Positions 2,448 through 28,000 of a DNA stretch of 62,031 nt are shown here, one piece after another. Position numbers and translations under genes: made by a program. The notes below the pieces were generated by a model that saw nothing but the letters and a program-made list of their open reading frames with translations, ran no database searches and was not told the origin of the DNA. The stretch spans positions 1-62,031 of the IMG/VR virus record IMGVR_UViG_3300046170_000369. One strand, 5' to 3'. This stretch comes from a virus (taxonomy: Duplodnaviria; Caudoviricetes). Positions within the stretch are counted from its first letter, which is position 1. Every line of letters starts with the position of its first letter.

Positions 2448-2744
2448 GGTACACAAGTGCCGACTAGCTACTAATGGTATTGGTAGGCTCTAGTCGGGGT
2501 CATATCAACCGATGCGAAAAATCCAGCTAGTTGATAAGCTGAAGTAGCACGTGACCTCGACTAGAGCTTATCAATACCAGCTAGATGTCCAGCCTCATCC
2601 TTTTCCTGCGGGGCATAGCTTGCTCAGTGGAGCTATACGACTATGTAAGGATGCGGACGGCGGCACGAGGTGATTCGTACAACACTACTATTCGGGACTA
2701 TGTCCGCGACACAAAGCGTCAATCATAGTCGGTACTCGTGTATC
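2448..2744 (+). ncRNA. Multi-branched structured RNA candidate
   Basis: Closing stem 2448-2466/2726-2744; internal 28-bp stem 2475-2502/2552-2579 whose three non-Watson-Crick positions are all G.U on the + strand; no credible ORF. Confidence 0.6.
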
Positions 2745-2942
2745 TATTTTATTTCCCCATATCCCCATGGAAGCGAGCAGTTGTCCCCCAGCTGTTCGCT
2801 TCCTATCACTTTCCTTAGTTGAGTAGGGGCGAGCAGGTTTTTGTCTTCCTGCTCGTCCTTCAATTTGCGGGTTAGGTTGGGTTATTATACATACAAACAA
2901 ACAAACAAACACGGGCGTGTCAGTCTATACGGGTTGGGACAC

Positions 2943-3038
2943 GACGCTGTGGAGCGTGTAGGGAGGCTTCACAAGTATTTACTGCCTCGGCAAAGCAATG
3001 CAAGTCCATGCTAGGTGAGGCTAGGCTAGGAATGGTAA
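2943..3038 (+). ncRNA. Satellite unit of the pentamer-repeat RNA: pseudoknot linker plus (GGN-NN)n tract
   Basis: ACGC/GCGT stem with loop TGTGGA pairing TTCACA, then AGTATTT, then GGCAA AGCAA TGCAA GTCCA TGCTA GGTGA GGCTA GGCTA GGAAT GGTAA. Confidence 0.7.
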
Positions 3039-3078
3039 TATCTTTACCAATTTAAAAATAATATAATACATTAGAACT

Positions 3079-3375
3079 ATGAAACTGACTAAACACTTAA
3101 CTTCTGTGTATCCTAATGATATACAGGAGCCTGATAAGAAGGAATTTGTAGAGCGTGTCACATCTTTGCTGCAGCGCGAAGGTGACAAGTGCTTTAAAGG
3201 GAACCCTCGGCTCGAAGAGGTGTTCCTCTATCGTGTATGCCTGGTACACGGTGGTGACAGCATGCTGTCACTTGAGGACAAAGAACTAAATGAAGTTCTT
3301 AAACAATTTAAATGCCTCATTGAACAAGGAGGCGTACTAATAACTCAGGTAACTGAGTGTAACCCAAATAACTAG
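3079..3375 (+). CDS. Hypothetical protein
   Basis: 98 aa ORF after an AT-rich leader. Confidence 0.65.
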   Translation: MKLTKHLTSVYPNDIQEPDKKEFVERVTSLLQREGDKCFKGNPRLEEVFLYRVCLVHGGDSMLSLEDKELNEVLKQFKCLIEQGGVLITQVTECNPNN

Positions 3376-3381
3376 ATAAAT

Positions 3382-3519
3382 ATGAAAATATCACGCAAAT
3401 TATGTAAAGCAGTAGCTCCTATTGCATTGAAGAAACACGAAAAGCTTTCGGGTAAGATAAACACCCGAGTAAACCGCAAGGTAAGCTTGCTGTCTTTTCT
3501 CAAGGAACTGCCTAGATGA
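3382..3519 (+). CDS. Small basic hypothetical protein (45 aa, not in ORF track)
   Basis: ATG 3382 to TGA 3519, MKISRKLCKAVAPIALKK...; directly preceded by the palindromic motif at 3358-3381. Confidence 0.5.
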   Translation: MKISRKLCKAVAPIALKKHEKLSGKINTRVNRKVSLLSFLKELPR

Positions 3520-3748
3520 GAAATAACAATGAAGATATGAAAAAAATAAGTGGGCATGAGGTTGTCTTACGAAATGATTCCCATGAGCATGATGAGAATG
3601 AGTGTTGGATCATTGATTTAAAAAAACGCTCACAACAATGAGTATATTCTTAGTGAGTGCTTTGGTGACAAGTCTGACGCTATTGCTAGGTATGATGAAC
3701 TTGCAACCCATTTAACTAAATACGGGAAACAATCTTTCCTCATGGAGC

Positions 3749-4450
3749 ATGAATGTAGTTATTGAAGCAAGCCCTCCTATCACGCCTATGATCATTGGTA
3801 GGCAAATCTCTCCTGCCTCATTGTGGGGCGTGGACAAGGGTCATGAGTACCTAGTACAGCCAAAGCTGAATGGTCAGCATGGTATCTGTGGTGTCATGAA
3901 TGGGGACATCGTGGCTCTTAATAAACATGGTAAGCCTCTTACTAAGTTTATGGAGTGGCGCAACCAACTGAGGTATCGCTTAGATACTCCAGCTTGGAGA
4001 GATACAATTGTTAATGGGGAGCTTGTTAAGCTTCCTAGGTCAGGTATAGGACATGAGTGGTTCTTTCCCTTTGATATACTATTCTATAGGGGCAAGGATG
4101 TTAGGCGCACCGCATTTCATGAACGGCTGAAGATTCTCAGGGACTGGATACAGGATCAAGGTGTATGTAACTACACGCCTAGTGTTGATCCATTTATCGC
4201 TGAGAATACCAGACGAATCATACCAAATATCCCATGGCAGAAACAAATGGGATACTTCAATTCAGATAAACAGGAACAGAACCGAAAGAGTATACTAGAG
4301 GCTCTTGTTCCTGGATGTAAGTATCCATTCAGTGCGTGCTTACTTGATGCTAAGGATGATCGCCTCATTGAGGGCGTAGTTCTCAAGCATAGAGACAGCA
4401 TATACATGGGTGGTAAGAACAAATCATTAATTAAAGCGAGGTGGGAATGA
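3749..4450 (+). CDS. ATP-dependent DNA ligase-like nucleotidyltransferase (adenylation domain only)
   Basis: Motif I QPKLNG, III NGELV, IIIa FPFDIL, IV EGVVLK, V LIKAR; the protein ends at motif V. Confidence 0.8.
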   Translation: MNVVIEASPPITPMIIGRQISPASLWGVDKGHEYLVQPKLNGQHGICGVMNGDIVALNKHGKPLTKFMEWRNQLRYRLDTPAWRDTIVNGELVKLPRSGIGHEWFFPFDILFYRGKDVRRTAFHERLKILRDWIQDQGVCNYTPSVDPFIAENTRRIIPNIPWQKQMGYFNSDKQEQNRKSILEALVPGCKYPFSACLLDAKDDRLIEGVVLKHRDSIYMGGKNKSLIKARWE

Positions 4451-4653
4451 ATAGAATCATCATAGAATTATATAAGAAGGTGGATGATAAATATCCTACC
4501 TATCGTTTCACCAGAACATATCCACGATGCTCAAATGATCGTGCTCATGACTTTGCTAACAAGTGGGCACAGAGTCGAGGGAAGGAGTTATTTGATTCTC
4601 CATCTTGGTATGTGAAAACCAAAACAATGTGGACACTAAAACAAAAAGAATGA
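4447..4653 (+). CDS. Hypothetical protein
   Basis: Small ORF coupled to the ligase stop by an ATGA overlap. Confidence 0.55.
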   Translation: MNRIIIELYKKVDDKYPTYRFTRTYPRCSNDRAHDFANKWAQSRGKELFDSPSWYVKTKTMWTLKQKE

Positions 4654-4871
4654 AGCATGACTTTCTAGAACAATTATCCATATCAATGGCTAGGCATGAA
4701 GAAGAAAAAGCCAAGAAGACTGTAGCCGTGAAAGTATGGATAGACAAAACTACTTTTATGATTGTCTGGATGACTCCAGAAGAAGCAGCGCGTCACCGCA
4801 AATTAACTGATCGCAAGGGTCAAACATCTATAGTGCGTAATGTATTGGATAAAGGTGGTAGACTGCAGTAA
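4650..4871 (+). CDS. Hypothetical protein
   Basis: Track ORF 4605-4871; likely start is MKHDF at 4650 (ATGA overlap). Confidence 0.55.
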   Translation: MKHDFLEQLSISMARHEEEKAKKTVAVKVWIDKTTFMIVWMTPEEAARHRKLTDRKGQTSIVRNVLDKGGRLQ

Positions 4872-4980
4872 CAATTTTTAGGAAGCCTCGGGTGGTTAGC
4901 CCTTGGATGACTCTAAAACAACACCGACACTCGGGTGCGAGGCTTCCTATCACTTTGTAAATGGCGTGCAACCGACAGGA

Positions 4981-5415
4981 ATTTACGGAGTGGTAAGCAC
5001 GGGAGGGGCGATGCGGTGAATGGACGAGAACGGAAGGGATTGGCGTGTAGCGGAAAGGCGGGGTCGAGAGAGGCCTTGCTTGACAAGCCAATCGACTGAC
5101 TGAGCGGTCGTAAAACTACTCAGACTATTTAAGGAGGGGACATGCTCGTGCTTGGAACGGAGGTGGCGAGGCTGTGCAATGGACGGACCGGCAAGGAACG
5201 GCAAGGGACTGACTAGGCAGTCTATAAATAACCTAGAGTATTTCAGGGGCGAGGCCTGCAATGGCGAGGACACGCATGGCTTTGGCGATGTCTGGCGAGG
5301 CGAGGCATGGGACTGACAGGGCAGTCGTTAAGTAACCCTGAGTATTTCAATGCTTGGATCTGCGATGTCGGGTCAGGCATGGAAGGGAAAAGACTGGAGT
5401 GGAAGGGCAAGGAAA
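4981..5415 (+). ncRNA. Array of four 5-nt-periodic (GGN-NN)n tracts with conserved 37-nt pseudoknot linkers; candidate guide-RNA array (VIPR-like)
   Basis: Tracts 4987-5081, 5133-5204, 5248-5308, 5351-5415; linkers GACTGAC-N4-CRGTC-N9-N4'-GASTATTT at 5094-5130, 5207-5243, 5311-5347; directly upstream of the RAMP-like gene. Confidence 0.85.
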
Positions 5416-5453
5416 GTTCCACATCCAATTAACAAACATAAACAATAATATAT

Positions 5454-6038
5454 ATGAAAAAAATAAGTATAGATGTAGAAGGGATTACTCCCATGTTATT
5501 ACACAATGGTCAGACTGCTGACCCACTGAATGAGTTCAGTAAAGAACTCAAGAAAGTATCAGGGAAACGCAACAAGACCGATGAAGATCACGCCCTTATG
5601 GGGGATATAGAGTGGCGAGCAGGTCTGTATTGGGACGACAAGCTTGGTGTATTCATGCCTGCCGAGAACCTACAGGCTATGTTATTGGCTGCCGCTAAGA
5701 AAACGAAGCAAGGTGCTCAATCCATACACATCCTTGTGGATGATGATATGGCAATCAAGTTCAAGAACTCCACTAAGTTCGATAAGCTTGAGAAAGACCC
5801 TGATATGAGGGACAGGAGAATCTGTCGAGTAGGTACTGCAAAGATAGCACGGACTCGTCCTAAGATTCCAGTGGGCTGGTCAGGCACTATTAATCTACTG
5901 ATCGATGTGGATGGTATCGATGAGGATGATGTCATCAAGTTTGCGGAGACTGCCGGGAAAATTATCGGCATGGGTGACTGGCGTCCTGAGAAGCGTGGGC
6001 GTTTCGGTAAGTTTGTAGTAACTAATGTCGTCAAGTGA
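5454..6038 (+). CDS. Stand-alone RAMP/Cas7-like RNA-binding protein (Vipr-like)
   Basis: N-terminal strand ISIDVEGITPMLLH, MPAENLQAML helix and C-terminal Gly-rich loop GMGDWRPEKRGRFGKFVV, typical of RAMP-fold proteins; no other cas genes in the window. Confidence 0.8.
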   Translation: MKKISIDVEGITPMLLHNGQTADPLNEFSKELKKVSGKRNKTDEDHALMGDIEWRAGLYWDDKLGVFMPAENLQAMLLAAAKKTKQGAQSIHILVDDDMAIKFKNSTKFDKLEKDPDMRDRRICRVGTAKIARTRPKIPVGWSGTINLLIDVDGIDEDDVIKFAETAGKIIGMGDWRPEKRGRFGKFVVTNVVK

Positions 6039-6532
6039 GTAGGTCTACATTACTACCAACTCGTAAGCATCCTGTGGAGAGGCATGTCTTTGAACAGCTT
6101 GAGGATGCAATTGACTATGGTGAGGTCATTAAGTGGCACATCATTGAGGAGATTGCTGATATGCCTAGGCTAGTACATGGCATTGTTGATCCTAAGTTTG
6201 CATTCATGTGGATGCAGGTGTCTCAGATGTTAGAGGGTAGAGGCTTCTTTACTACTGAACGAGGGATGAATGGTGAGGGCTTTAGGGTGTTGCAACGCGA
6301 AGAAGTAGCCTCCCATAACGATAAGAAGGTCAAGCAGGACATCAAGCAATGGGAACGCAGAGTTGTTGGTATGTCCTGCGTGTCTCGTGATGGCATGAGT
6401 CATGACGAGCAACGCAAGCTTGATCATATACAAAACAAAGTGGTCATGATGGCTGAGGTGAACAAACACCTGATGAGGAAGCGTAACCTTCCTATGCCAG
6501 GAAAAGCATTGGAGGCTGTTAAGTCATTATGA
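6035..6532 (+). CDS. Hypothetical protein coupled to the RAMP-like gene (possible winged helix plus helical C-terminus)
   Basis: GTGA overlap with the RAMP-like stop; GEVIKW...GEGFRVL pattern suggests a wHTH wing (inference). Confidence 0.7.
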   Translation: MSRSTLLPTRKHPVERHVFEQLEDAIDYGEVIKWHIIEEIADMPRLVHGIVDPKFAFMWMQVSQMLEGRGFFTTERGMNGEGFRVLQREEVASHNDKKVKQDIKQWERRVVGMSCVSRDGMSHDEQRKLDHIQNKVVMMAEVNKHLMRKRNLPMPGKALEAVKSL

Positions 6533-6990
6533 TCAACCAATTGAATAGCTTCGTAAAGGCGAACCAACAGATTGTGGACGCCACAGAGAAGTACATAGCA
6601 CAACTGAAAGGAATACAGATGTCATATATGTCGGACATAGACATCGAGCGTCAGAATCAAATCAATCCTGCTGACGAACCTGTGAACACGGCAGGTGAGT
6701 TATGCATGACGCTTGATACTACACGGGAAATACAAGCCATAAGGAGATACAAGGATGTGCTCATCAGCTTAGATGACGATGCTTGTCTCTCCGAAGATGG
6801 AGAACTTAGTAGGGCTGAAGCTCAGGAGAAGGAGCTAGGGCTTATGAAGGAAAGGGAAGCTATCGTGAAGTTCTTAGGCTATCGCCTCAAGAATCCTTCT
6901 GCTTGTGATGAACACTTGGAGAAATTCAAGGGACATCCTGAGTATGAGAAGGATACACCCCTTACTGCAGGGGACTCACCATGGACATAG
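6529..6990 (+). CDS. Hypothetical protein
   Basis: 153 aa ORF, ATGA overlap. Confidence 0.7.
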   Translation: MINQLNSFVKANQQIVDATEKYIAQLKGIQMSYMSDIDIERQNQINPADEPVNTAGELCMTLDTTREIQAIRRYKDVLISLDDDACLSEDGELSRAEAQEKELGLMKEREAIVKFLGYRLKNPSACDEHLEKFKGHPEYEKDTPLTAGDSPWT

Positions 6991-15899: not shown

Positions 15900-16096
15900 T
15901 TTAGATTACTCCTCTTGTTGTTGTTAGGGTTTCCATCCTTGTGGTGTGCTTCCTGCCCTTTCTTGCACTTAGCTTTTCTGCGAGCTTTATTCCTGCTAGA
16001 GCGTCTCTTGATTTGCTCCTTCTTGCCGTGGTATGCATCGTACTCAGAATCCTTTTCGCCTTTTTTGTACTTCCTCTTAGCTCTCATTCCTATCAC
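15830..16096 (-). CDS. Small HNH-motif protein
   Basis: AHHKDGNPNNNKRSNL...N motif; the C-terminal translation in the track may be imprecise. Confidence 0.7.
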   Translation of the reverse strand: MIGMRAKRKYKKGEKDSEYDAYHGKKEQIKRRSSRNKARRKAKCKKGQEAHHKDGNPNNNKRSNLKCLPKKKNRSIQPKRGRRRTTSK

Positions 16097-16344
16097 TTCA
16101 TTGACTTCTTACCTCTGCACTTCCATTTCTTTCTGGATAGAGCATTAGCACAAGGCGGATTCTTGCACTTTTTTATCCCAGCACTGCGAGCACAGTAAGC
16201 ATCTCCCTTTTTTGTTCCTGGGCGTATGCGATCCTTACCATCCTTAGCCTTACCCTTCTGCCCGAACGAACGGCACTTACCCTTCACTCGTTTGGCAAAG
16301 CGTTTACCCTTGGAGGGCTTACAGGCTTTCTTTCTTGCTGGCAT
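16093..16344 (-). CDS. Small basic Cys-containing phage protein
   Basis: SFGQKG...YCARSAG...SRKKWKC pattern, recalled from aquatic phage small proteins. Confidence 0.7.
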   Translation of the reverse strand: MPARKKACKPSKGKRFAKRVKGKCRSFGQKGKAKDGKDRIRPGTKKGDAYCARSAGIKKCKNPPCANALSRKKWKCRGKKSMK

Positions 16345-17696: not shown

Positions 17697-18107
17697 CTAG
17701 CAAATTAATTCCCATCCGTGTCTGTACTTCTCCCACTTTGCTTTACTCATGGGGTTCGGAAATAACTTGATTGTTAAATTTCTACCTATTTTCTCCTTTG
17801 GTATTATGTACCAGTAGGACTCTCCATCTCCTACCACTAAGGCTGCAAGTATATCGTATGCTTTCTCTGCATAGTGATTCTTCTCCGAGGTCTTTGACCC
17901 CATAGCTGTGCTAATATTGTAACCTGTCTTACTTCTTCTGGAAGAAGTTCCTTTTACCTGTACCTTATATAGCCTCCTCCCATTGTCTATAATTACATCG
18001 TAGGGAAGGTAGTCACCTTCTGCTTCACTCACATGCAATCCTCTTTTCATCGCTTCTACTTTAAACATACTCTCATATAATGTGCCTGCGTGCTTGTGTA
18101 TGCTCAT
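17697..18107 (-). CDS. PD-(D/E)XK endonuclease
   Basis: E...PYDVIIDNG...KVQVKG motif. Confidence 0.8.
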   Translation of the reverse strand: MSIHKHAGTLYESMFKVEAMKRGLHVSEAEGDYLPYDVIIDNGRRLYKVQVKGTSSRRSKTGYNISTAMGSKTSEKNHYAEKAYDILAALVVGDGESYWYIIPKEKIGRNLTIKLFPNPMSKAKWEKYRHGWELIC

Positions 18108-21100
18108 AATAAAGCTTGTCTCCTTAGATCGTCTATTTGGACTCTCTTGGTTCTGCTCTCTCCCTTTGGCTTTCCTCCTATGAGTTGTAGATAATAGGAA
18201 TGTTTTAGTAACGCATCTTCGATGTCATTTCTGTCCTCGGGGTCAAGAACTGATAATAGTTTAATCCAATCAGAATCACCCAATGTGTATTTACTTACTC
18301 CGTTCCTTAAGTTTCTTCTTTTAAATCTATCTGCGACATCTTTCTTAGGATCGGCATCGTCGGATAGTTGCAACGCTAACCGATATGCTTCCAAGAAGCT
18401 GTCCCTGTCTCCCACATATGCAGACCTTTCCATTTCCCGTATCGCTATGGACATAGCGTTGGGTCGATAAGATAGTCCTCCCCCAACCTTCTGCGTCTCA
18501 ATACCAATAGCTTTGGTGATTGCCCGCAACTTGTTACGCTGATTCAGAACATTGGTAACCTTGTATTCTGAACTGAATAATGGAAAGTCTTCTGTGCCTA
18601 GTAAGTTATTTGAGTACTGGGCGAATTGTATGACATTGTTCATGCCCACAATGTTCATCAGTGGTCTGATGACTGAGGAATACTCAGGTGTAAATGTATC
18701 AGCCGAACGAGTGTCGATTGCACTCAGGTAGTTCAGGAACACATCACTCAAGTTACTAGCCATACTTACTAGCATAATACGATTAGTAATGTCCCGTTGG
18801 AATGATTCACCTGTAGCTCCAAGCAATGCATTAGTTGCAGCCTCCTGATATATACCACCAAACGATGATGTCCTGCCGAGTCTCTCTATCAAGCTAAGAG
18901 TCCTGAAGGCTGGATCGTTTATTGCAAACAATAAGCCGAATGGTAAGTATGCTTCAGGTGGAACATAGCCAAGACCTGGGTCTTTACCAAGAACCTCCTC
19001 GTCATATAACTCACTACCACGCATAACAAACAATGAGATAGGTACACCAACTGACAATGCAGATAGTGCAAAGACTCCAAATGCTCGGTAAGTATCTATG
19101 TTGCTAGGATCAACTGCATCTCTGCTATCACCACGGAATTTTCGGTTGGCATGAGCAGCCATACTGGTAGACCATCCAAGAAGTGGGCTGGCGTAGATAC
19201 CGCCCTTGGTGTCAAGAATCCTAGCCTTAGCACTTGTCCCATCAAATGTGATTTGGGTACTTGCTATATGTGCAGCAACCAACTTGTTCTTATCAAGAAT
19301 AGGATCAGCACTGAGGTCGCCCTTTCTTCTCCTTCTGAAGTCCTGTGCAAGCTTGGTAATCGAAAGACCAAAGTTGGCAAGCTCACGATCAATACGATCA
19401 TTCACTTCTTTACTATCTCTGAGACTCATGCCCAAGAAGTTATTGGAGTATTCCATGTTCTCAGAACTCAACTCATAGCCATTGTCTTCTGGGTCAACCC
19501 CTAGTTGGTCAAGGGTATGTGCTGCCCCCTCAACTCTTCTCTTCAGGTCAGCCAATACTTCAAGTGTGGTATGCTTGAGCGTAGCATTACTTAACCATGA
19601 GAAAAGGTTAGAGAACCCAGGGATTAAAGAGAAGGTCGATAGTGAACCAGGAGCAGTCGTTAGAGTACCCTCTTCCGCAAGTTTCTCTCTTCCTGGCTCG
19701 CCATTTAAGATCATGTTGATTACCCGATTGTTTACGCCTGGGATTTTAAGACCGCTCTGTAGAGCCGTGCGTAGCATTCTTGTGAACTTACGCATTGAGG
19801 AGGTTTTGGTATTTTCACCTAGCACACCCTTTGCTCCAGCATCACTAAATCTATCTGATGTGGCTGTCTCTAATGATGTCCATAGTGGAGCAAGTGCTTC
19901 CTCTCCATACTGTTTCTTACCTGCGGAGAACATATTCTTGCCAAAGCCCTGCATGATTGTGTCAAGTGCTTCAACTGGCATTCTTTTCAGAACATTAAAT
20001 GCAGCTTTGAAGCCAGCAGGCTGTAAATCATACAGCTGAAAAATTTGATATATGGAAGCCAAGTTCATTATAGCAGACTTGGGATTCGCTACTAACATAC
20101 TAGAGATAGTCTGTAGTGTTTCAACTGCTGCCCTCTCATCAGAAAGCACAGAACCCTGACTCTTCGCATATGCAGCAAAGGCGGGCTTCATCTTCTGTGC
20201 TTCTTTTAATGCATAGATTTTTGTGTAAAGGCTCTTGAGCTTTTCATACTCATCAGAAGTTATTTTCTTTCGTAAGGCACGAGGTAGTCCAAACTTCTTG
20301 GTCGCCTGAATATTAAAGAAGTTCCTGCTATCTAAGTTGCGCTCATTGTCATCACGATCTGCCCATGGGTATGGTTCATCTGTTATCTTCCTGTAGATTA
20401 CATCCCATTCAGCTTCTAGCTCTCTCTCCTTATTCAACAACTCTTTATAGGCAGCATCGAGCTTCTCCTGATTTCTGCCAAAGTGATGAGCCATGAGCAT
20501 CTTGGCTACCATCTGCCTCATGTCGATTTCTGTCATCATGCTGTATGTGAAGAAATGACTAGGTAGTGATACACTTTCGTCCCGTGAGTTTAAAGAGTTC
20601 CAGACCTCTGACTTGTATATAATAGCATTTGGGTTTTCCTTACTCCCTGCTGTTTTCGATTCGTACTCGTCATACTTCTTGACTATCGCATTCGCACGAC
20701 GGTTTATTTGTGTCAGAAAGTCTAATCCGTTCTTTACGAAATCTTTCTTGGATACATTATCGGGCATCAGTTCGGCTATCGTCTGATAAATTCTAGCACC
20801 CACATCTCCACCCTCAGAATTATTCCAAGCTTCCGAAACCTCATCCATAGACACAAGCCTCTCACCCATCATCCACCCAAGGTTACGTGGGTTGCTATAG
20901 TCATTAAGGGTAGGCTCAAGAAAGAAAAGTTCTACATCACTTGACAATTTCCATGCTGATAACTCTGCCTGAAAAGAGTTTCTATCGTAGTCCTCCTCAT
21001 ACAAAGGATCATTTTTATCTGTCTTCTCTTTAATGCTAGTAACTATCTGATTAAAGATATTAGTCTTTTCATTATTCCTTGTTAAAGCACGACTAGCATC

Positions 21101-24100
21101 CCTGAGGTTTTGCATCATCAGCATTCTAGGAAGAGTCAATGCACCCATTGGGATTTGGCCTCTATAGAGTGTTCTTTTCTGAAGCAGAGGATCCATTATT
21201 TTTATGCTATCCTCAATGGGCAGATTAAATTCTTTGGCTGTCTTCTGGATCAGGTTGTTGGCTACCTGTATTTCCTGTACAAGCTCCATCCATCTCTTCT
21301 TTGCCTTCGCATCATCGTTATGAATCTTAAATCTTTGCTTTTTAAGAGTAGACCAAAAGTCCTCTGCCAGCGAATTAAGGTCATCAATCTTGGGTTGCCC
21401 CTCGACATATGCCATGAATGGATTAAATAGATACTGCTGGATTTGCTCGAGCGAAAGTTTTTTACCTGCACCATTCCGTAACTCAGCCTGTAGGTTGTAC
21501 CATGCCCTACTTACTGAGTGTCCCTGCCTCACTGCATTTGATCCATACTGCCTAAGCTCTGTATTCAGGCGGTTAATCATTGTGGAAATCATCAAGGCTT
21601 CCTCATCACCTGCACGGGAAACAACCTGCGAGAATGATTCAAGGTATGAAAATGCTGTACCTGTAAATGTGGCATCATAGGATTTAGCCAAGCCTTGTTC
21701 AATCAATGCATAGGTTCTGGCAAAAGCATCTCGATGAGCATCCGATATCTTATACTTGGGATTCTCAAGGATAGCCTTCATCCTGTTTGCTTTCTGCACA
21801 AACTCAGTGTAGCCCTTCCCTGAAACCATGTACTTAACTTTTATTGGTACAATGTTTCCTTCCTTATCCAGGTCGAGCATATCAACCATGTCCCCCACGG
21901 CTACCTCTGGAGTAATCACAGAACCAAGGTAGTCTTCGATCTGCATAGACCTCTCATTATACTTCTCAATGAGATGCTTGCCTAGTGGCATCAATTGTGT
22001 CTGCTTGGCAATCTTCTGATTAAGAGCGGTCATCTGTTTGCGAACCTGCTTAACCTCATCTATCTGCTTACCAAGGATTCCTGTGGTGGACACATCCTTC
22101 CAGTCATCTGATATTGCTGCCTGTCTGAGAGCTTCAACTTCCAGCTTCAATGCACGGGTTGGTGCATTCTTGGATAGTCTCATCTCAATAGAAAATGCAG
22201 ACCTAGCTTTATTCTTGGTGTCCTTGTGTAGCATCTCAGCAAGTAAGGCACGAACAACATTATCCTGTCTCTCGCCAGTTAGCCCCTCAAACATATCAGC
22301 CGACGATACCTGTCCCTCAAGAGCATCATATATCTCCTGTCTCGACATCTGCTCTGGAGCCATACCCCCTTCGATTATTGCCTGAAGTACCTCGTACACT
22401 TTATTAGCACGGAGGTTATCAATGAACTCTCCCTTATTGTAATCAGGCATACCCGCAAGATTGTTGTATCGGGTGTTATTGATTAAGCTCTTCAGCTTCT
22501 TTTCTACAAGCTTCTTAACCTTATCAGGGTCATATCTCTTTCCTGATGCTAAGTCCTCAAGTCTCTTCTTGTTCTTCGCCAGCTCTTCCTCCGACTCCTT
22601 CACAATCTTGTCGGTCTTCTGCATCTGTCTGGTAATTAAATCTTTTGATCCTTCGATTAGCTCCAAGGTTCTTCTGGCTACACGCATCCGCTCTGCGGTG
22701 GTTGCAAACTTGCCAATCGAATCAATTGGCTCTGCACCTTCCTGATCAAGCATCTTGGACAACGCCTGCTCCCTGTCTGCAGTTCGTGCCATGCTTTCCC
22801 CTTTCTTGAGCTTTTTCTTAGCAGCTTTTAGAGCGAGATTAAGGATACCAACCTTAGTAACAGACAGTCTGTTCTTTAAAAGGTTCTCGGTAATTTCATT
22901 CTGTAGCTCTTCAGGAAGTGTGGATGTCGCCTCCGTTAGTACCTTCATTAACTCAGCCAACGCTGCATATTCCTTCTGCAAGTTTTGCTCGACCTCACTC
23001 CTACTTGGGGTGTGAGAGTACATCTCAGAGTTGAGGGAAATCTTGCGGTACACATGTGAATTAGATACATCCGTTACATCCCTTCGCCTATTATAAAGAA
23101 CACTACTAGGGTTCTCCAAAGCATTATTTATGTTACGAACAAGGGCTTTTATAAAATCCCTCTGACCACGCGGCGAGGAGAGTTCCTCTTCAGGCATTCC
23201 ACGATAGATAGTTTCTCCGTCGAAGGGAGATTTTATCGCCAGTGCTCCACCTACCCTTTTGACTTCTTGAGATAAATCTTCGGTTGGCTCGAAGGCTTCA
23301 TCTCGTTTAAAAGTGAAGCCTAGCCGTTTAGACATTTCTATAGCATCCTCAAAAAGAGTTGCCTCTCGGGAGGATGGTTTACCCCTAGCTAGGTATTGCA
23401 CAAAAGCCTTTAATGTAGCTATCCTGTCCTGTTGTTTTAGTGTTAATAATCCTGTGTACGGAGAGTCGTTGTACTCCTCTGCACCTTCGTCGATTTTCTT
23501 TCTAGCCTCTCTTGCTTCCATCGAAAGCTGTAGGGAGCTTTTCTTAGATTTCTGAGGCGAAGGTTGATTTGGCCCAAGGTAATTTAAATCTGTAATCGCA
23601 GGCTTTTTCTGACCTTCTATTTGGATTTTAATCTTAAGATTGTTGTCTGAGAGGGTGGATTCATTAATATACGCACCATCTAATTTTCCATGATCAGGGT
23701 GAATTACTTCGAGAACTGTAGCTTCATCGCTTTTATCATCACCTTCCCACCAATAGCCCATCTCTTCCCATATTTTTCTTTTTTCCTCTAGCGTAGAGTT
23801 TGCCCAATTAGCTCTCTGTGTATCGTTAGGTCTTCGTCCTGTATGGTTCTTGAAGTAGTCACTATATAGATCATCCATCTCCCGCTCTGTTAGCGGAGGC
23901 TCGTAAAAGTAGAGTACTTTATCTCTTTTTTGAATTTTAGTTTCTGCCTCTAGATCACCATTTCCAAAAAGCACAGCAAAAGGTTGAGATTCCGTTTGTC
24001 CTGTCGGAGTAGAATTATTGATGTAATTATCTAAGATATAATTAACCATCTCACCTGTGGTGCGAGTAGCATGTTCTTGAATGCTTTCTCTACTTCCCAC

Positions 24101-25075
24101 CTTAGAGGCATCTGGACGCACCAATAGCTGTATAGCTTTTTCGTCAAGCGCACCTTTTTTGCTCTTAGCGTATGCTATTTTCTCTGATCCTGTGGCACTT
24201 TCAGGCACTTGAGTTAAGAGTGTCAATCCAAGTACATCCTTAATCTCTTTCTTTAAATCCTTTGGAAATATTACAGCCTTACTATCCTTATACCTATTTA
24301 GGTTTTTAACTAGATTATCGAGTTTCTCTTGCTGTACCTTACCCTCAAAGTATTCCCCGTCTTCCAGTATCGCTCTGCCCTCTTCATCAACTCCTTCCAA
24401 GCTCTGTAGGGATTCCGATTTACCTAACAGACTCTTCTTAAACTTCCTGTATTTATTCCACTGGCTATCTGAGATTTTATCAGACCCAAGCGTTGGGCGA
24501 GAAATGCCAAGCTGTGCTCGGATAGCATTAGCTAGTCGATCAACATCACCTTCCTTATTTAAGCCTAGTCCTCCTGCTAAGGTCAGGGCTGTGCCTGAAA
24601 TCATATCAGACTGATCATTATCAATTGTTGTTCTTGATAAATAACTACGGGCAATTGTTTGGAAGTCTCGATTCGCTACTGCTTCTTTTGGTATTCTGTA
24701 AAATTCCTGATATGTGGGTGCTCTCCAATCATCTTCCTCTACAGGGTCAGGGTCTTTGTTCTCACTCTTACCTTCCCAAAAATCAAAGAACTGCTGAGAT
24801 GCCAGTATTGGCTGACTCTCCAGTGAACTCATAAGGAATATATGATTCTCACCACTAATTTTATTTGAGTCCTTAAAGAATGTCTTCAGGTGGTCATCCA
24901 TCATCTCTAGGATTGATGCCTCTGGGATGCCTGTAAATATACGGGAAAGTATTCTGCGGAAGAAGTCCCCTACCCTTTGGAGGGTTGTTCGGTATCTAGG
25001 CACGGAAACTCTTTGGGTAACTTGAGGTTTTCTATCTCTGCACGGAAGTTGGCGTCTATTGCATAGCTTGCCCAC
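18104..25075 (-). CDS. Giant internal virion/ejection protein, C-terminal part (frameshifted from upstream ORF near 25005)
   Basis: 2323 aa, largely helical; sits at the end of the structural module. Confidence 0.7.
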   Translation of the reverse strand: MGKLCNRRQLPCRDRKPQVTQRVSVPRYRTTLQRVGDFFRRILSRIFTGIPEASILEMMDDHLKTFFKDSNKISGENHIFLMSSLESQPILASQQFFDFWEGKSENKDPDPVEEDDWRAPTYQEFYRIPKEAVANRDFQTIARSYLSRTTIDNDQSDMISGTALTLAGGLGLNKEGDVDRLANAIRAQLGISRPTLGSDKISDSQWNKYRKFKKSLLGKSESLQSLEGVDEEGRAILEDGEYFEGKVQQEKLDNLVKNLNRYKDSKAVIFPKDLKKEIKDVLGLTLLTQVPESATGSEKIAYAKSKKGALDEKAIQLLVRPDASKVGSRESIQEHATRTTGEMVNYILDNYINNSTPTGQTESQPFAVLFGNGDLEAETKIQKRDKVLYFYEPPLTEREMDDLYSDYFKNHTGRRPNDTQRANWANSTLEEKRKIWEEMGYWWEGDDKSDEATVLEVIHPDHGKLDGAYINESTLSDNNLKIKIQIEGQKKPAITDLNYLGPNQPSPQKSKKSSLQLSMEAREARKKIDEGAEEYNDSPYTGLLTLKQQDRIATLKAFVQYLARGKPSSREATLFEDAIEMSKRLGFTFKRDEAFEPTEDLSQEVKRVGGALAIKSPFDGETIYRGMPEEELSSPRGQRDFIKALVRNINNALENPSSVLYNRRRDVTDVSNSHVYRKISLNSEMYSHTPSRSEVEQNLQKEYAALAELMKVLTEATSTLPEELQNEITENLLKNRLSVTKVGILNLALKAAKKKLKKGESMARTADREQALSKMLDQEGAEPIDSIGKFATTAERMRVARRTLELIEGSKDLITRQMQKTDKIVKESEEELAKNKKRLEDLASGKRYDPDKVKKLVEKKLKSLINNTRYNNLAGMPDYNKGEFIDNLRANKVYEVLQAIIEGGMAPEQMSRQEIYDALEGQVSSADMFEGLTGERQDNVVRALLAEMLHKDTKNKARSAFSIEMRLSKNAPTRALKLEVEALRQAAISDDWKDVSTTGILGKQIDEVKQVRKQMTALNQKIAKQTQLMPLGKHLIEKYNERSMQIEDYLGSVITPEVAVGDMVDMLDLDKEGNIVPIKVKYMVSGKGYTEFVQKANRMKAILENPKYKISDAHRDAFARTYALIEQGLAKSYDATFTGTAFSYLESFSQVVSRAGDEEALMISTMINRLNTELRQYGSNAVRQGHSVSRAWYNLQAELRNGAGKKLSLEQIQQYLFNPFMAYVEGQPKIDDLNSLAEDFWSTLKKQRFKIHNDDAKAKKRWMELVQEIQVANNLIQKTAKEFNLPIEDSIKIMDPLLQKRTLYRGQIPMGALTLPRMLMMQNLRDASRALTRNNEKTNIFNQIVTSIKEKTDKNDPLYEEDYDRNSFQAELSAWKLSSDVELFFLEPTLNDYSNPRNLGWMMGERLVSMDEVSEAWNNSEGGDVGARIYQTIAELMPDNVSKKDFVKNGLDFLTQINRRANAIVKKYDEYESKTAGSKENPNAIIYKSEVWNSLNSRDESVSLPSHFFTYSMMTEIDMRQMVAKMLMAHHFGRNQEKLDAAYKELLNKERELEAEWDVIYRKITDEPYPWADRDDNERNLDSRNFFNIQATKKFGLPRALRKKITSDEYEKLKSLYTKIYALKEAQKMKPAFAAYAKSQGSVLSDERAAVETLQTISSMLVANPKSAIMNLASIYQIFQLYDLQPAGFKAAFNVLKRMPVEALDTIMQGFGKNMFSAGKKQYGEEALAPLWTSLETATSDRFSDAGAKGVLGENTKTSSMRKFTRMLRTALQSGLKIPGVNNRVINMILNGEPGREKLAEEGTLTTAPGSLSTFSLIPGFSNLFSWLSNATLKHTTLEVLADLKRRVEGAAHTLDQLGVDPEDNGYELSSENMEYSNNFLGMSLRDSKEVNDRIDRELANFGLSITKLAQDFRRRRKGDLSADPILDKNKLVAAHIASTQITFDGTSAKARILDTKGGIYASPLLGWSTSMAAHANRKFRGDSRDAVDPSNIDTYRAFGVFALSALSVGVPISLFVMRGSELYDEEVLGKDPGLGYVPPEAYLPFGLLFAINDPAFRTLSLIERLGRTSSFGGIYQEAATNALLGATGESFQRDITNRIMLVSMASNLSDVFLNYLSAIDTRSADTFTPEYSSVIRPLMNIVGMNNVIQFAQYSNNLLGTEDFPLFSSEYKVTNVLNQRNKLRAITKAIGIETQKVGGGLSYRPNAMSIAIREMERSAYVGDRDSFLEAYRLALQLSDDADPKKDVADRFKRRNLRNGVSKYTLGDSDWIKLLSVLDPEDRNDIEDALLKHSYYLQLIGGKPKGESRTKRVQIDDLRRQALL

Positions 25076-28000
25076 ATCTCCTGCTCACTAGTTAATATCT
25101 CAGAGTACTTGCCTTCTTTGGCGTACTTCTCTCTAAGGAAGTCAAAGATAGCTCCTGATGATTTACTTAAGTACTCAAAGTCTTTTATGCTTAACTTACC
25201 TTTGTAGTGGCTTGGTAGGAATCCATTCCTTCTGTAGTTATGTAGGGCATCTATGGTTGTGTACAATACGGCATGCTGAAGCTCTTCCGCTAGCACCCTG
25301 ATCATGTGCTGGAGTCTTTCGGCTTCTGTCATTTCTGTTCCGTCAGACTTAACATAACCATAATAGTTACCCATCATGATGTGTGGGTCTTCTTCCCCGC
25401 CCCTAGATAGAGGACTATACTGCCCGTACCTTGTAGGCACAGGTTGCCCCGCACGCTCTTTCTCAATACGAATCTGCTCAGTAACAGCCGCCCATTGCTC
25501 GTCAGTTGCCCATACTACATCAACATTATTAAGTTGCTTACGGAGTGGCTGTAGCATCTCCAGTACCCTTGCGGTACTCTCATCATCTACCAATTTGATT
25601 GCACGGACTAATGCATCGTATCCCTTAATTACTTTTCCTGGTTCTGCACCCTGTAGGAATTGTGTGCGGATGCGGTCACTCTCCTGTGCTGCGACTTCAG
25701 GATTTGGTTCACGCTCAGCACCTACCCTTTGTGAAGCAGTGACAATACCACTACCCCCACCCATATCACTACTGCCATCGTACACCCCAGCATCAAGAAC
25801 TCCTTCTTCTTTCTGCTCATCAACCTTATCGGTTACATACTCGTATACATTTCTGCCTGTTGCATCCTCTAAATCGCTTCTCCAATTTTCTAAAAACTTA
25901 GCATCGCCCTGAGAAAGTATTGTGCCCACTGCTAGTGGAGCATGCCCCACTTCTTCCTGCATATCCAGAAGAGTATTCGCTAGACTTTCATTGCTACTAG
26001 AAAGAATGTCCTCAGACCTTAAAGTCGATATCTCGTATCCATGCCCTGCATGAAATGTGTCCTCCCAAGTACTAAGCTCGGCCTTTACCCTGGATATATC
26101 TAGCTCAGTGGATTGACTTATATTTATTAAGCCCAATTGAGCAGCAGCCGATCGTACAGCGTCCTTGTTAATTCCACCACCGACAGCTTTTGCTGGCTCA
26201 TTAGGGTCATAGTTTTTCTCAAAGCTCTCCCTGAATGATGGATCATTAATTAGCCTATCAAGAATACCCTCAGAAAACTCTTTTGTTTTTTGGATCTTCT
26301 CCTCAACCAATCGCTTACTTTCCTCTAAGTCCTGTATCTCTTTATCTATATCGATCTGCTCCTGAAATACTAAATCACCCTCATTCAAAAGATTCACATC
26401 CGCTATATTATCAGCGTTCTGAATTATCTTTCTATTGTCTTCCCTTAATCCCTCGATTCGGTCATTTAGACTTTTAAGAACATCACTATAGCTTTTGCCT
26501 AAGCTTTCATCCTCAGTGCCGTCGACTGTTTCATTTATCTCTTCCTGAATCTCAGCCTTTAGTTCTTCAGTAATATCAGCAGGATTAACACGCTCTGTGT
26601 TATCAGAATCAAAAAAGTACCAGTAAAGAATGTCTAGTATATCCTGATGCAATGCACCTTCTTGATCTTTAACATTAAGTAGGTTCCTCAACTCGACAGC
26701 CTGCCTGACCTTTTCAGCCATAACCAACATCTCTTCCAGGGTAGGCAATGGAGGTATTCCACCATTCTCCATGAAGAAATTATAGATCGCACCCTCTTCA
26801 GTTATATCTAACTTATAAAGCTCAGGTAGTTTATTTCCGTACTGCTTGATCAAGCGGTCTTTTATTTCGTCAGGTATACTACCATCTTCAAAAAGTATAT
26901 TCCTTAGCGTCTTATATCCATAGGACTTGAACTCACTCCACCAATACGGAAGGTTAGAGTTAGGATTCTTATCTTTGGTTGCAATACCCTGGCTTGTTTT
27001 CTTTCCACCAAAAAGTTTCTTAAGGAAAGGATTATTACCCTCCTTACCATTATACATATGCTCCTCATAATCCGCACCGAGGTTGAGCTTTCCGCCATTC
27101 TTTGCACGCTTGCGAGCAGCCCAGAGTTGTTCAAATTGGGAAAGCTCTCTTATGCGAACCTGACCGCCCTGCTCTAATCCTTGAGTAAGGTAATCAAGAT
27201 ATGCCGATAGCTCAGGAAATTCAGCATATTTATTCTCAGCCAGCTTTTGCTGAATAAAACTTTTAATCTCATATATTCTTCTCTCAGCAAACTTTGCTAT
27301 ATCTGCTTTAGCTGCTTCTCTTTGGTCAGGCGGAAAATAAAGGTGAGCATATGGATTGTAACCTTCACTATCTGTAAGCTCCTCATTCTCAGGATCATTA
27401 TCGAATCTATATTTAGGATGACCATTCTCTACAGCTTTTACATTCTGCTCACGAACTGCGTCCATGAAGCTCTGCATGGTTGCGAAGTTTGAGTTAGCAG
27501 TAAAAAAGTTTTCACTCTCCAGAAGACCAACTACCTTAAAGGTTGCATCGCCCTCAAGCTGTACACCATCTCCATTATCTACAAAAGGACTACCCTCGTT
27601 TTGCCCTATAGTTGAAAAGCTACTCGATATATCACTTGGGTTAGGCTTTGTGAATGGATTAAATTTTCCACTGTTTCTATTTGAGGATTTATGGATAACG
27701 AGATTGTAGTTATCGAAACCGAAATGATTCTTTTCTTTCAGCTTCTTTATTTCCTCCCTTTTCTTGCCTTCTTTCTTTTTCTTGCTCTTATAGTAGATTG
27801 ATCGTACTGCGACCCGACCATAATGATCGACTACAACTATTGCTTTTTTTGAATACCCGTTTGCGTTACTTGTACCAATCAAGCCAAGCTCCTTGACCTG
27901 CTCTAGTACATCATCACCTGTAACTGGTATAAGTTCGCTCTCCAAGTACTCCTTCGGCGACATGTTTGAGCCACCGGAACTTGTTATACTAAATTGAACA

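What the first reader, a model, noticed from the sequence alone, without database searches (positions are those of the whole stretch)
4981..6038. Candidate phage RNA-guided system: pentamer-coded RNA array plus a lone RAMP/Cas7-like protein
Seen: a 435-nt non-coding array directly upstream of 5454-6038 with four tracts of 12-19 pentamers. Each pentamer is a near-constant triplet (GGA/GGC/GGT, variants TGC/TGT/AGA) plus a variable dinucleotide, e.g. 5351-5415 TGCTT GGATC TGCGA TGTCG GGTCA GGCAT GGAAG GGAAA AGACT GGAGT GGAAG GGCAA GGAAA. The tracts are separated by conserved 37-nt linkers. Established: the protein has RAMP-superfamily hallmarks (Gly-rich loop GMGDWRPEKRGRFGKF), and Cas7 proteins polymerise along guide RNA with a fixed nucleotide period. 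Inference: one subunit binds each pentamer, gripping the triplet and displaying NN, so each tract is a guide whose information is interleaved with scaffold. There are no cas1/cas2 genes, nuclease or CRISPR repeats, so this is not CRISPR. From memory it resembles the recently reported VIPR systems (GGY-NN RNAs), which I cannot verify here; the heavy use of GGA would be a variant.
Basis: partly seen in the sequence, partly recalled or inferred. Interest (0 to 1): 0.96.

Follow-up and report, generated by a model that had tools for sequence, protein, structure and literature searches.

The report
VIPR guide-RNA system in a marine phage
This is a real member of the recently described VIPR family, in which a small Cas7-like phage protein uses pentamer-coded guide RNAs to silence rival viruses, and one of its guides matches a gene of an unrelated marine phage perfectly.

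Summary
ORF 5454-6038 is a homologue of the solved SUSP1 Vipr protein (PDB 36pp, E 1.8e-27). Its AlphaFold model hits Csm3/Cas7 chains.

Upstream lie four same-strand tracts of 17, 14, 12 and 13 pentamers. Three are capped by a 3' pseudoknot tail with compensatory changes. The next gene, 6035-6532, travels with vipr in relatives and is a remote vap1 homologue. Same-strand periodic tracts flank 76 of 92 distinct Vipr homologues.

New here: guide vr3, read by the published one-nucleotide-skip rule, matches 24 of 24 positions in a Holliday-junction-resolvase gene of an unrelated IMG/VR phage, in codon register. A guide of a 66%-identical system hits the next gene of the same operon.

Seawater strains swap or lose whole guide cassettes while vipr stays nearly constant. 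The repeat is relaxed, (G/T)G(A/C)NN, but such variants are already in print.

Verdict: a new member of a known kind. Expression and binding were not shown here.

The parts
4879..4956 (+). Stable branched stem-loop followed by the motif TTCCTATCACTTT. It is a candidate promoter or leader of the vrRNA array; its function is not shown.
   Evidence: RNA fold -32.3 kcal/mol, z -3.9, 0 of 200 shuffles as stable. The motif occurs exactly at 2799-2812 and 4943-4956. It also stands at the head of the arrays in L001 and L009. No Rfam match.
4987..5132 (+). vrRNA 1. It has a 17-unit guide tract (4987-5071), a spacer with a small hairpin-like stretch (5072-5093), and a pseudoknot tail (5094-5132). Units at 4963-4982 look like the remnant of an extra vrRNA that L001 still has.
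   Evidence: Unit parse, tail alignment and pair counts, and comparison with L001. No target found.
5133..5245 (+). vrRNA 2. It has a 14-unit guide tract (5133-5206, two of the units 6 nt long) and a pseudoknot tail (5207-5245).
   Evidence: The guide part is replaced in L001 and in seawater contigs, and the whole unit is absent from one contig. Its best match to the target-phage family, 19 of 28, is not significant (73 of 300 shuffles).
5246..5349 (+). vrRNA 3. It has a 12-unit guide tract (5248-5308, one 6-nt unit and three units not starting with GG) and a pseudoknot tail (5311-5349). It is the guide with an identified natural target.
   Evidence: 24 of 24 NN positions match L106 3840-3874 under the 1-nt-skip rule. 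0 of 300 shuffled guides reach that. Tail.
5351..5415 (+). Fourth tract, 13 units, without a pseudoknot tail. It runs into the 38-nt vipr leader (5416-5453). It may be a tail-less vrRNA or a Vipr-binding leader; which is undecided.
   Evidence: It is identical in L001 except for an 11-nt deletion at its 3' end, and X3 and X18 contigs carry 9-nt and 2-nt deletions there. No target found. Alignment with the short tails of L009 is unconvincing.
5454..6038 (+). vipr: a 194-aa minimal RAMP protein, the Vipr effector.
   Evidence: PDB 36pp_D, SUSP1 Vipr, E 1.8e-27 over residues 1-185. phrog_4652, E 6.3e-48. AlphaFold pLDDT 88; best Foldseek hits are Csm3/Cas7 chains, best E 6e-6, 68 hits at E<=1e-3. 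The equivalents of SUSP1 H17, K33, E71, R138, D177, W178 and R179 are kept.
6035..6532 (+). vap: a 165-aa vipr-associated gene that overlaps the vipr stop by 4 nt. It is a remote vap1-like protein with a probable winged-helix DNA-binding fold.
   Evidence: Homologues (29-98% identity) lie downstream of vipr in 14 of 105 fetched Vipr loci: L001, L006-L015, L027, L069, L086. hhalign against the family of the gene in the vap1 position of a SUSP1-like phage gives probability 95.3%, E 2.4e-8; against the LESphi2 type, 95.9%, E 5e-9. AlphaFold pLDDT 80. Foldseek gives only weak hits (best E 0.08), mostly MarR-type winged-helix regulators.
2799..3038 (+). Second, separate locus. The same TTCCTATCACTTT motif and a leader of about 120 nt, homologous to the leader of the L009 array, are followed by a 10-unit pentamer tract (2989-3038) with no pseudoknot tail. 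It is a candidate solo vrRNA.
   Evidence: Its NN content is A/T-rich and gave no match above the null.

Best explanation
Identity. Window 4879-6532, probably together with 2799-3038, is a VIPR (Viral Interference Programmable Repeat) system of an uncultured marine tailed phage.

Inferred by homology with SUSP1. The array is transcribed and cut into vrRNAs. One Vipr protomer (5454-6038) binds each pentamer. It sequesters the first three bases, (G/T)G(A/C), and presents the last two. A 3' pseudoknot caps vrRNAs 1-3. The filament reads double-stranded DNA by pairing each NN with two target bases and skipping every third base, and it blocks transcription. The downstream vap1-like protein (6035-6532) assists as a DNA binder.

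Shown here by sequence. Guide vr3 is a perfect 12-unit match to the 5' part of the first gene, a Holliday-junction resolvase, of a resolvase/unknown/exonuclease operon in an unrelated marine phage. NN falls on codon positions 1-2 and the skipped base on the wobble position. The guide has the sense of the coding strand, so it can pair with the template DNA strand but not with the mRNA.

Proposed role. The system silences the recombination module of a competing phage in a co-infected cell. Guides turn over in nature by swapping or losing whole guide-plus-tail cassettes.
For: Protein. Sequence homology to solved SUSP1 Vipr, E 1.8e-27. A Csm3/Cas7-like predicted fold. The SUSP1 RNA- and DNA-contact residues H17, K33, R138, D177, W178 and R179 are kept (residue roles from sections 5 and 6 of 10.64898/2026.04.26.720927).

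RNA. Lag-5 periodicity. 56 units with G at position 2 in 53. Over 13 tails from the window, L001 and L007, 130 of 130 cells pair, and 4 of the 5 pseudoknot pairs carry compensatory changes. 0 of 500 shuffles reach the covariation score, and slid controls pair in 25-40% of cells.

Context. 76 of 92 distinct Vipr loci have a same-strand tract within 1 kb, against 3 of 92 on the opposite strand. The vap gene is conserved beside vipr and is vap1-like by profile comparison. No Cas1 or Cas2. The record is a virus record with tail-fibre and portal-like genes.

Target. Five guide patterns, four with 20 specified bases and one with 19 plus one two-fold-degenerate position, were scanned in IMG/VR. Four found nothing. 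The vr3 pattern found one site, and the two units left out of the pattern also match, giving 24 of 24. The site is in frame, with NN on codon positions 1-2. The gene is phrog_1770, Holliday junction resolvase, E 1.6e-14. The full 24-base pattern has 0 hits in 596 billion bases of prokaryotic genomes. 0 of 300 shuffled guides reach 24. L007 guide 3 matches 21 of 26 in the next gene of the same operon in L111, also 0 of 300.

No self-target. No guide reaches 80% on the phage's own genome, as the discovery paper reports for its systems (Methods section 27).

Population. Guide parts of vr1 and vr2 are replaced, and whole units lost, in L001 and in seawater contigs, while vipr shows only a few substitutions.
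Against: - Nothing here shows that the array is transcribed, processed or bound by the protein. The only RNA-library signal is one 151-nt contig (5254-5404) at depth 2 in an oligo-dT library, and it could be DNA carry-over.
- Only one of the five tracts has a target. vr1, vr2, vr4 and the 2989 tract gave nothing above the null.
- The repeats are more degenerate than in most relatives: the best score is 8 of 10 in-phase GG, where many loci reach 10 of 10, and 17 of 56 units do not start with GG.
- SUSP1's pyrimidine pocket is said to exclude purines, yet half the GG units here carry A. I found no residue change that explains this.
- vr4 and the 2989 tract lack the capping pseudoknot.
- The size of the IMG/VR collection is not given, so I cannot state an exact E-value for the target hit.
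- The vap1 link rests on a profile comparison of small alignments with 11-17% identity. It also rests on my inference that the HY02 gene in the vap1 position is vap1.
Confidence: 0.9

Rival explanations
1. The locus is a decaying VIPR remnant. The protein may be intact, but most tracts are eroded and no longer work as guides, and only vr3, if any, is functional.
For: 17 of 56 units do not start with GG, and three units are 6 nt long. In-phase GG scores are 6-8 of 10, where many relatives reach 10. vr4 and the 2989 tract lack the pseudoknot tail. Four of five tracts have no detectable target.
Against: The perfectly matching guide vr3 itself contains three non-GG units and a 6-nt unit, and their NN bases all match the target. 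Degeneracy therefore does not prevent a meaningful code. The closest relative, L007, has equally degenerate tracts and a significant target in the same operon. The discovery paper notes frequent internal degeneracy of vrRNAs (Methods section 20). vipr, vap and the tails are conserved across seawater strains. Missing targets are expected for an uncultured phage whose rivals are poorly sampled.
Confidence: 0.06
2. The protein works like a type III Cas7/Csm3 backbone on RNA. The tracts would guide binding or cleavage of a rival's transcripts rather than DNA silencing.
For: The best structural neighbours of the model are Csm3 and Cmr4 subunits of RNA-targeting type III complexes.
Against: The vr3 NN string has the same sense as the coding strand of the target gene. 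It is therefore complementary to the template DNA strand and cannot pair with the mRNA. The sequence homologue SUSP1 Vipr binds double-stranded DNA. No Cas10 or other type III partner was looked for beyond Cas1 and Cas2, and no large cas-like operon flanks the locus.
Confidence: 0.02
3. The 24 of 24 match to L106 is a coincidence of codon-biased sequence, and the natural targets are unknown.
For: The guide spells common codon starts (GA, CT, AT, CA, TT). The collection is large and of unstated size. Only one guide hit.
Against: Four other patterns of the same information content gave no hit in the same collection. The four bases outside the search pattern also match. The full pattern is absent from 596 billion bases of genomes. 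Homologous sites in three relatives of the target phage keep 19 of 24. An independent guide of a related system hits the adjacent gene in register.
Confidence: 0.03

Closest known systems
SUSP1 VIPR system of Escherichia phage SUSP1 and other Felixounavirus-like phages (type II VIPR; 10.64898/2026.04.26.720920, 10.64898/2026.04.26.720927, 10.64898/2026.10.15.759431)
   Same: A Vipr protein of about 195 aa with the same contact residues. vrRNAs of tandem pentamers followed by a 3' pseudoknot tail. A small downstream accessory gene related by profile. A phage carrier, the 1-nt-skip code with the skipped base on the wobble position, and a rival mobile element as target. A ligase gene lies just upstream in both.
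   Different: Only 35% protein identity. All vrRNAs lie upstream here, whereas SUSP1 has one upstream and three downstream. The repeat consensus is (G/T)G(A/C)NN with A in half the GG units, whereas the SUSP1-like HY02 locus uses GGT in 11 of 11 strict units. 6-nt units occur. The last tract has no tail. The host is marine, and the target is a phage recombination operon rather than a satellite recombinase.
Pseudomonas fulva prophage VIPR and the related locus of Pseudomonas phage LESphi2
   Same: The gene order is the same: vrRNA array, then vipr, then vap1 (construct description; LESphi2 locus). The vap overlaps the vipr stop. Targets are genes of competing phages.
   Different: About 37% identity. 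GGC-dominated repeats, 19 of 25 strict units in LESphi2. A temperate Pseudomonas phage context, with targets at lysogeny switches.
CRISPR type III backbone subunits Csm3, Cmr4 and Cas7
   Same: RRM-based RAMP fold with a glycine-rich loop and thumb. Best Foldseek hit 7uzw_A at E 6e-6, probability 1.0, TM 0.45-0.58. A fixed nucleotide period per subunit along a guide RNA (established knowledge of class 1 complexes).
   Different: 10-16% identity. No Cas1 or Cas2 and no repeat-spacer array. The period is 5 rather than 6 nt. Guide information is interleaved with scaffold. By homology it targets DNA through a gapped code.
VIPR-like arrays with non-canonical 5-mers (21 clusters, for example WGT/NN and TGH/NN) reported from a genomic language model (10.64898/2026.10.21.760802, passages only)
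   Same: A trinucleotide that departs from GGY, beside a Vipr-like protein.
   Different: Those clusters are described as having one dominant non-canonical motif. Here canonical GGC units are mixed with GGA, TGC, TGT and AGA units within single guides. I could not see their supplementary lists, so I cannot say whether this clade is among them.

Membership tests
VIPR system | Vipr protein: a minimal RAMP with RRM core, glycine-rich loop and thumb, homologous to described Vipr proteins | tested here: met
   PDB 36pp_D, SUSP1 Vipr, E 1.8e-27 over residues 1-185. AlphaFold pLDDT 88, with 68 Foldseek PDB hits at E<=1e-3 led by Csm3/Cas7. H17, K33, E71, R138, D177, W178 and R179 equivalents are kept. 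M72, C173 and position 175 (V in the SUSP1-like HY02 sequence used for numbering; the structure paper names T175) are N, I and M here.
VIPR system | vrRNA: tandem 5-nt repeats of a conserved GGY (or related) trinucleotide and a variable NN, at least four units, beside vipr on the same strand | tested here: met
   Four tracts of 12-17 units and lag-5 periodicity. The consensus is relaxed to (G/T)G(A/C). Same-strand tracts occur in 76 of 92 homologous loci.
VIPR system | NN hypervariable and scaffold conserved between close relatives | tested here: inconclusive
   Between the window and L001, vr1 and vr2 differ heavily while the tails, vr3 and vr4 are identical. However, the changes fall on all five unit positions, so this looks like cassette replacement rather than NN-only change. 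Seawater contigs show the same replacements.
VIPR system | Invariable 3' tail, a pseudoknot in the SUSP1 clade | tested here: met
   Met for 3 of 4 tracts. Over 13 tails, 130 of 130 cells pair and 4 of 5 pseudoknot pairs are compensatory. Not met for vr4 and the 2989 tract.
VIPR system | Minimal locus with a vipr-accessory (vap) gene, and no cas genes or CRISPR array | tested here: met
   The vap is conserved beside vipr and is vap1-like by hhalign, 95% probability. Cas1 and Cas2 profiles find nothing in the record. I ran no dedicated CRISPR-repeat finder.
VIPR system | Targets read by the 1-nt-skip rule, skipped base at the wobble position, and no self-target at 80% NN match or more | tested here: met
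   vr3 matches 24 of 24 in a resolvase gene of L106, in codon register. The best self match is 19 of 24, against a null maximum of 18 in 30 shuffles. The other tracts have no target.
VIPR system | vrRNAs expressed as RNAs of about 100 nt that co-purify with Vipr, and RNA-guided repression of double-stranded DNA targets | not testable with these tools
   Only one 151-nt contig in an RNA library covers 5254-5404. This is a weak hint, not evidence of processing or binding.
VIPR type II (SUSP1 and P. fulva type) | Position in the Vipr phylogeny, vrRNA architecture, and a vap1 DNA-binding accessory gene | tested here: inconclusive
   The gene order and pseudoknot tail fit and the vap is remotely vap1-like. 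I built no tree against the paper's type representatives, and its classification tables are in supplements that I could not open.
CRISPR-Cas class 1 (Cas7/Csm3 as part of a cas operon) | Repeat-spacer array, adaptation genes cas1 and cas2, and further effector subunits | tested here: not met
   No Cas1 or Cas2. The neighbours are a ligase, small ORFs, vap and a GP88-family gene. The array has a 5-nt period, not repeat-spacer units.

The most novel reading that the evidence does not exclude
This clade uses a looser repeat grammar than the solved SUSP1 system. A purine is accepted at the third scaffold position, G1 is dispensable, and occasional 6-nt units still keep the target in a strict 3-nt register. 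All of these are present in the one guide with a perfect natural target. In addition, the tail-less fourth tract, fused to the vipr leader, may not be a guide at all. It may be an autoregulatory landing pad on which Vipr polymerises to throttle its own translation.
Probability: 0.15. Interest if true: 0.55.

Novelty: new member of a known kind. Interest (0 to 1): 0.4.

Why it matters
VIPR was described only in 2026. The experiments in the parts of the papers I read were done on Escherichia and Pseudomonas systems, apart from two heterologously expressed type III and V loci.

This locus shows the same machinery in an uncultured phage that 17 of 24 listed seawater metagenome runs hold. It comes with a clean natural guide-target pair in which a perfect 12-unit match falls in a rival phage's resolvase gene.

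It also gives a natural test case for tolerance of GGA, non-GG and 6-nt units. And it shows how guides turn over without Cas1 and Cas2: whole guide-plus-tail cassettes are replaced or lost between strains that are otherwise about 97.5% identical. None of this changes the published picture. It extends it and offers ready-made constructs.

Tried and rejected
**Pocket substitutions as the cause of GGA use.** SUSP1 M72, C173 and position 175 are N, I and M here. I rejected this idea because N72 with I or V at 173 and L or M at 175 is also the common state in loci that use GGC almost exclusively, for example L075 with 96 of 96 C.

**The phage's own 19 of 24 match of vr3 at 50672 (-) as an escaped homologue of the target gene.** Rejected: the ORF there is unrelated to the L106 resolvase.

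**Other targets.**
- 20-base patterns of vr4, vr1 (two windows) and vr2 found nothing in IMG/VR.
- An 11-unit pattern of vr4 found nothing in genome contigs.
- The 13-unit vr4 pattern with up to 3 mismatches found nothing in the whole L106 record.
- W_vr2 at 19 of 28 on the exonuclease gene of the target family is not significant (73 of 300 shuffles). L007_vr4 at the same site is marginal (7 of 300).

**A short L009-type tail for vr4 and the 2989 tract.** The alignment is unconvincing, with 51% mean column identity.

**Database annotation.**
- Pfam gave nothing for Vipr or vap.
- PHROGs gave nothing for vap.
- A PDB profile search with the vap alignment gave nothing.
- Foldseek on the vap model gave only weak winged-helix hits.
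- Rfam gave nothing in 4500-6100. In 2600-3200 it gave only a chance-level SorY hit, 22 bits against a threshold of 111.
- blastn against GenBank phages found no relative of the locus or of 25 kb of the structural region.
- A sigma-70 promoter and terminator scan of 2600-6600 gave no more sites than shuffles and none at the array.

**RNA libraries.** X18 is only guessed to be RNA. X20 gives one low-depth contig. Parts without cover say nothing.

**Not run or not seen.** I could not see the supplementary tables of the four papers, including the VIPR type lists, vap families, non-canonical repeat clusters and target lists, so this clade may already be listed there. I did not run complex prediction, the search of protein representatives or the protein-atlas search.
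Full report
**What is there**

The window is the whole record, a linear virus record of 62,031 bp that CheckV rates 83% complete. Between a small ORF ending at 4871 and ORF 5454-6038 lies a stretch with strong 5-nt periodicity of GG. Lags 5, 10 and 15 give 25, 23 and 22 pairs, against 2-5 at lags 2, 3 and 7.

A scan of both strands of the whole record finds such tracts only here, in four blocks, plus a weaker one at 2989-3038 and one probable chance site inside a long ORF at 30641-30695.

A dynamic-programming parse gives 17, 14, 12 and 13 units, 56 in all:
- Position 2 is G in 53 units and position 1 is G in 42.
- Position 3 is A in 26, C in 24, T in 5 and G in 1.
- Thirty-nine units start with GG, followed by A in 19, C in 17 and T in 3.
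- Three units are 6 nt long.

The region is non-coding. Against a 97.5%-identical IMG/VR phage (L001) it shows indels of 67, 4, 10 and 11 nt.

**The linkers are pseudoknots**

Three tracts end in a conserved element of about 39 nt. I aligned 13 copies from the window, L001 and L007. A 5-bp stem and a 5-bp pairing between its loop and a downstream pentamer form standard pairs in 130 of 130 cells. Four of the five loop pairs carry compensatory double changes, in 15 cells. None of 500 shuffles reaches the covariation score, and slid controls pair in only 25-40% of cells.

This matches the 3' pseudoknot tail described for SUSP1-clade vrRNAs (Results of 10.64898/2026.04.26.720920; section 6 of 10.64898/2026.04.26.720927). 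The fourth tract has no such tail and runs into the 38-nt leader of the ORF.

**The protein**

- Pfam finds nothing, and PHROGs places it in phrog_4652, of unknown function.
- Against PDB sequences it matches one entry, 36pp, named SUSP1 Vipr protein, at E 1.8e-27 over residues 1-185.
- The AlphaFold model built on 12 sequences has pLDDT 88 and pTM 0.81. Its best Foldseek PDB neighbours are Csm3, Cmr4 and Cas7 chains, with best E 6e-6 and 68 hits at E<=1e-3. That library ends in April 2026 and listed no Vipr entry among the hits shown.
- I numbered residues on the near-identical HY02 protein. The contacts named in the structure paper (H17, K33, E71, R138, D177, W178, R179) are kept. M72, C173 and position 175 are N, I and M.

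**The accessory gene**

ORF 6035-6532 overlaps the vipr stop. Homologues at 29-98% identity lie downstream of vipr in 14 of 105 fetched Vipr loci. In L011 and L012 the array sits between the two genes.

It has no BLAST similarity to the gene in the vap1 position of the SUSP1-like phage HY02. Profile comparison, however, gives 95.3% probability (E 2.4e-8, 131 columns) to that family and 95.9% to the LESphi2 type. The model has pLDDT 80 and gives only weak hits, mostly MarR-type winged-helix regulators. That is compatible with the predicted DNA-binding vap of type II systems but does not prove it.

**Relatives**

- GenBank phages hold 130 records with a homologue, all below 60% identity. The rows listed show at most 37.7%.
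- The large protein collection has 92 homologues at E<=0.001. After the window's own 99% cluster and an 83% partial match, the next full-length ones are 64% identical.
- I fetched 105 loci. Of 92 with distinct vipr DNA, 76 have a same-strand tract with at least 7 of 10 in-phase GG within 1 kb, and 3 have one on the opposite strand. Sixteen have none by this criterion. Several of those have short flanks and others may use other repeats.
- The third base is C or T in most loci. It is A-rich in L022 (11 of 12) and L087 (16 of 19), and mixed in L015, L038 and L040.
- The pocket residues do not track this, so I dropped that explanation.
- Non-canonical VIPR 5-mers are already reported (passages of 10.64898/2026.10.21.760802).

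**The target**

Following the published rule (Methods sections 26 and 27), I turned guides into xNN patterns.
- On the phage's own genome no guide reaches 80%. The best is vr3 at 19 of 24, against a null maximum of 18 in 30 shuffles, and the site is not a homologue of the later target.
- In IMG/VR, ten-unit patterns of vr4, vr1 (two windows) and vr2 found nothing. The vr3 pattern found one site, L106 3840-3868.
- The two remaining units also match, so all 24 NN positions agree.
- The full pattern has no hit in 596 billion bases of prokaryotic genomes, and 0 of 300 order-shuffled guides reach 24 on the target-family loci.
- The site lies 114 nt into ORF 3726-4202, so NN falls on codon positions 1-2 and the skipped base on the wobble position.
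- That ORF is a Holliday junction resolvase (phrog_1770, E 1.6e-14). It is the first gene after a divergent intergenic region, and it is followed by an unknown gene and an exonuclease (phrog_298).
- The guide has the sense of the coding strand, so it can pair with template DNA but not with the mRNA.
- The three non-GG units and the 6-nt unit of vr3 all contribute matching NN.
- The target record is 26,175 bp and 65% complete. It shows no protein-level similarity to the window beyond one 32-residue hit in a relative. The fetched parts of it and its relatives hold no Vipr gene and no periodic tract.

**Convergence on one operon**

Three relatives of the target phage, with a resolvase 71-72% identical, keep 19 of 24 at the homologous site. 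Guide 3 of L007, whose Vipr is 66% identical to the window's, matches 21 of 26 in the middle gene of the same operon in L111 and 20 of 26 in L108. Both are in register, and 0 of 300 shuffles reach that. L007 guide 4 (23 of 32, 7 of 300 shuffles) and the homologous window guide vr2 (19 of 28, 73 of 300 shuffles, not significant) align at one site in the exonuclease gene. This echoes the convergence of SUSP1 and P. fulva guides on single rival elements, but here only two matches are significant.

**Population**

Seventeen of 24 listed seawater or marine metagenome runs hold at least half of the sampled words of 4870-6100. I laid four runs:
- Contigs of X2 and X3 replace 4980-5033 by 119 other letters and 5131-5200 by 74.
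- X2 contigs also join 5130 to 5237 and 5231 to 5304, so whole vrRNA units are missing.
- vipr carries a handful of substitutions.
- L001 shows the same pattern and has one extra short vrRNA with its own tail.

Guides therefore turn over as cassettes bounded by the tails. The one RNA-library contig (X20, 5254-5404, depth 2) is at most a hint of transcription.

**Surroundings**

A stable branched stem-loop (z -3.9) followed by TTCCTATCACTTT precedes the array. The same motif, plus a leader of about 120 nt homologous to the leader of the L009 array, precedes the 2989-3038 tract. The window therefore probably holds a fifth, separate vrRNA.

**Comparison and verdict**

Every defining feature of VIPR that sequence can test is met:
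- a Vipr homologue;
- pentamer vrRNAs;
- pseudoknot tails;
- a vap gene;
- no Cas1 or Cas2;
- a phage carrier;
- a 1-nt-skip target in codon register;
- no self-target.

Expression, ribonucleoprotein formation and repression cannot be tested here. Gene order and tail type fit type II, but I could not check the type tables, which are in supplements.

This is a new member of a known kind. Its useful extras are a natural perfect guide-target pair in marine phages, tolerance of GGA, non-GG and 6-nt units within that guide, a tail-less tract fused to the vipr leader, and cassette turnover in natural populations.

Noticed in passing
window 2799-3038: There is a second pentamer tract of 10 units at 2989-3038, 2.4 kb upstream of vipr. 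It sits behind the same TTCCTATCACTTT motif and a leader of about 120 nt (ACAAACAAACA run, two small hairpins that seem to covary) that is homologous to the leader of the vrRNA array in L009. It may be a solo vrRNA with its own promoter, and it has no pseudoknot tail.
   Followed up: partly
window 2768-2812, 4879-4956 and 16086-16099: A GC-rich stem-loop is followed by TTCCTATCACTTT: two exact copies and a third with 2 mismatches. The copy at 4879-4950 folds with z -3.9. The element has no Rfam family. It could be a phage-specific promoter or a terminator/insulator of early genes.
   Followed up: partly
window 3749-4450; L004 1006-2106; L009 1249-1959: An ATP-dependent DNA/RNA ligase gene lies just upstream of the VIPR locus in this marine phage, in its 58%-identity relative L009, and in the distant Felixounavirus HY02. 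This shared neighbourhood across very different phages is unexplained.
   Followed up: no
window 18104-29058 (- strand): Two overlapping giant ORFs of 2,323 and 1,362 aa have no Pfam or PHROG match. Further ORFs of 1,334 aa (no PHROG match) and 1,376 aa (tail-fibre repeats) follow. The phage has no nucleotide relative in GenBank phages.
   Followed up: partly
L001 136-1253 versus window 3526-3749: The 97.5%-identical IMG/VR phage carries about 1.1 kb where the window has about 220 nt, between the small early ORFs and the ligase gene. This is an indel of unknown content.
   Followed up: no
L009 2486-2988 and L008 1-496: The 58%-identity relatives have near-perfect GGC/GGT arrays (10 of 10 in phase) with a different, short tail of about 20 nt and no pseudoknot. 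Tail type therefore changes within this Vipr clade.
   Followed up: partly
L011 and L012 3706-3975: In these 47%-identity relatives the vrRNA array lies between vipr and the vap homologue rather than upstream. The array position is therefore mobile within the operon.
   Followed up: no
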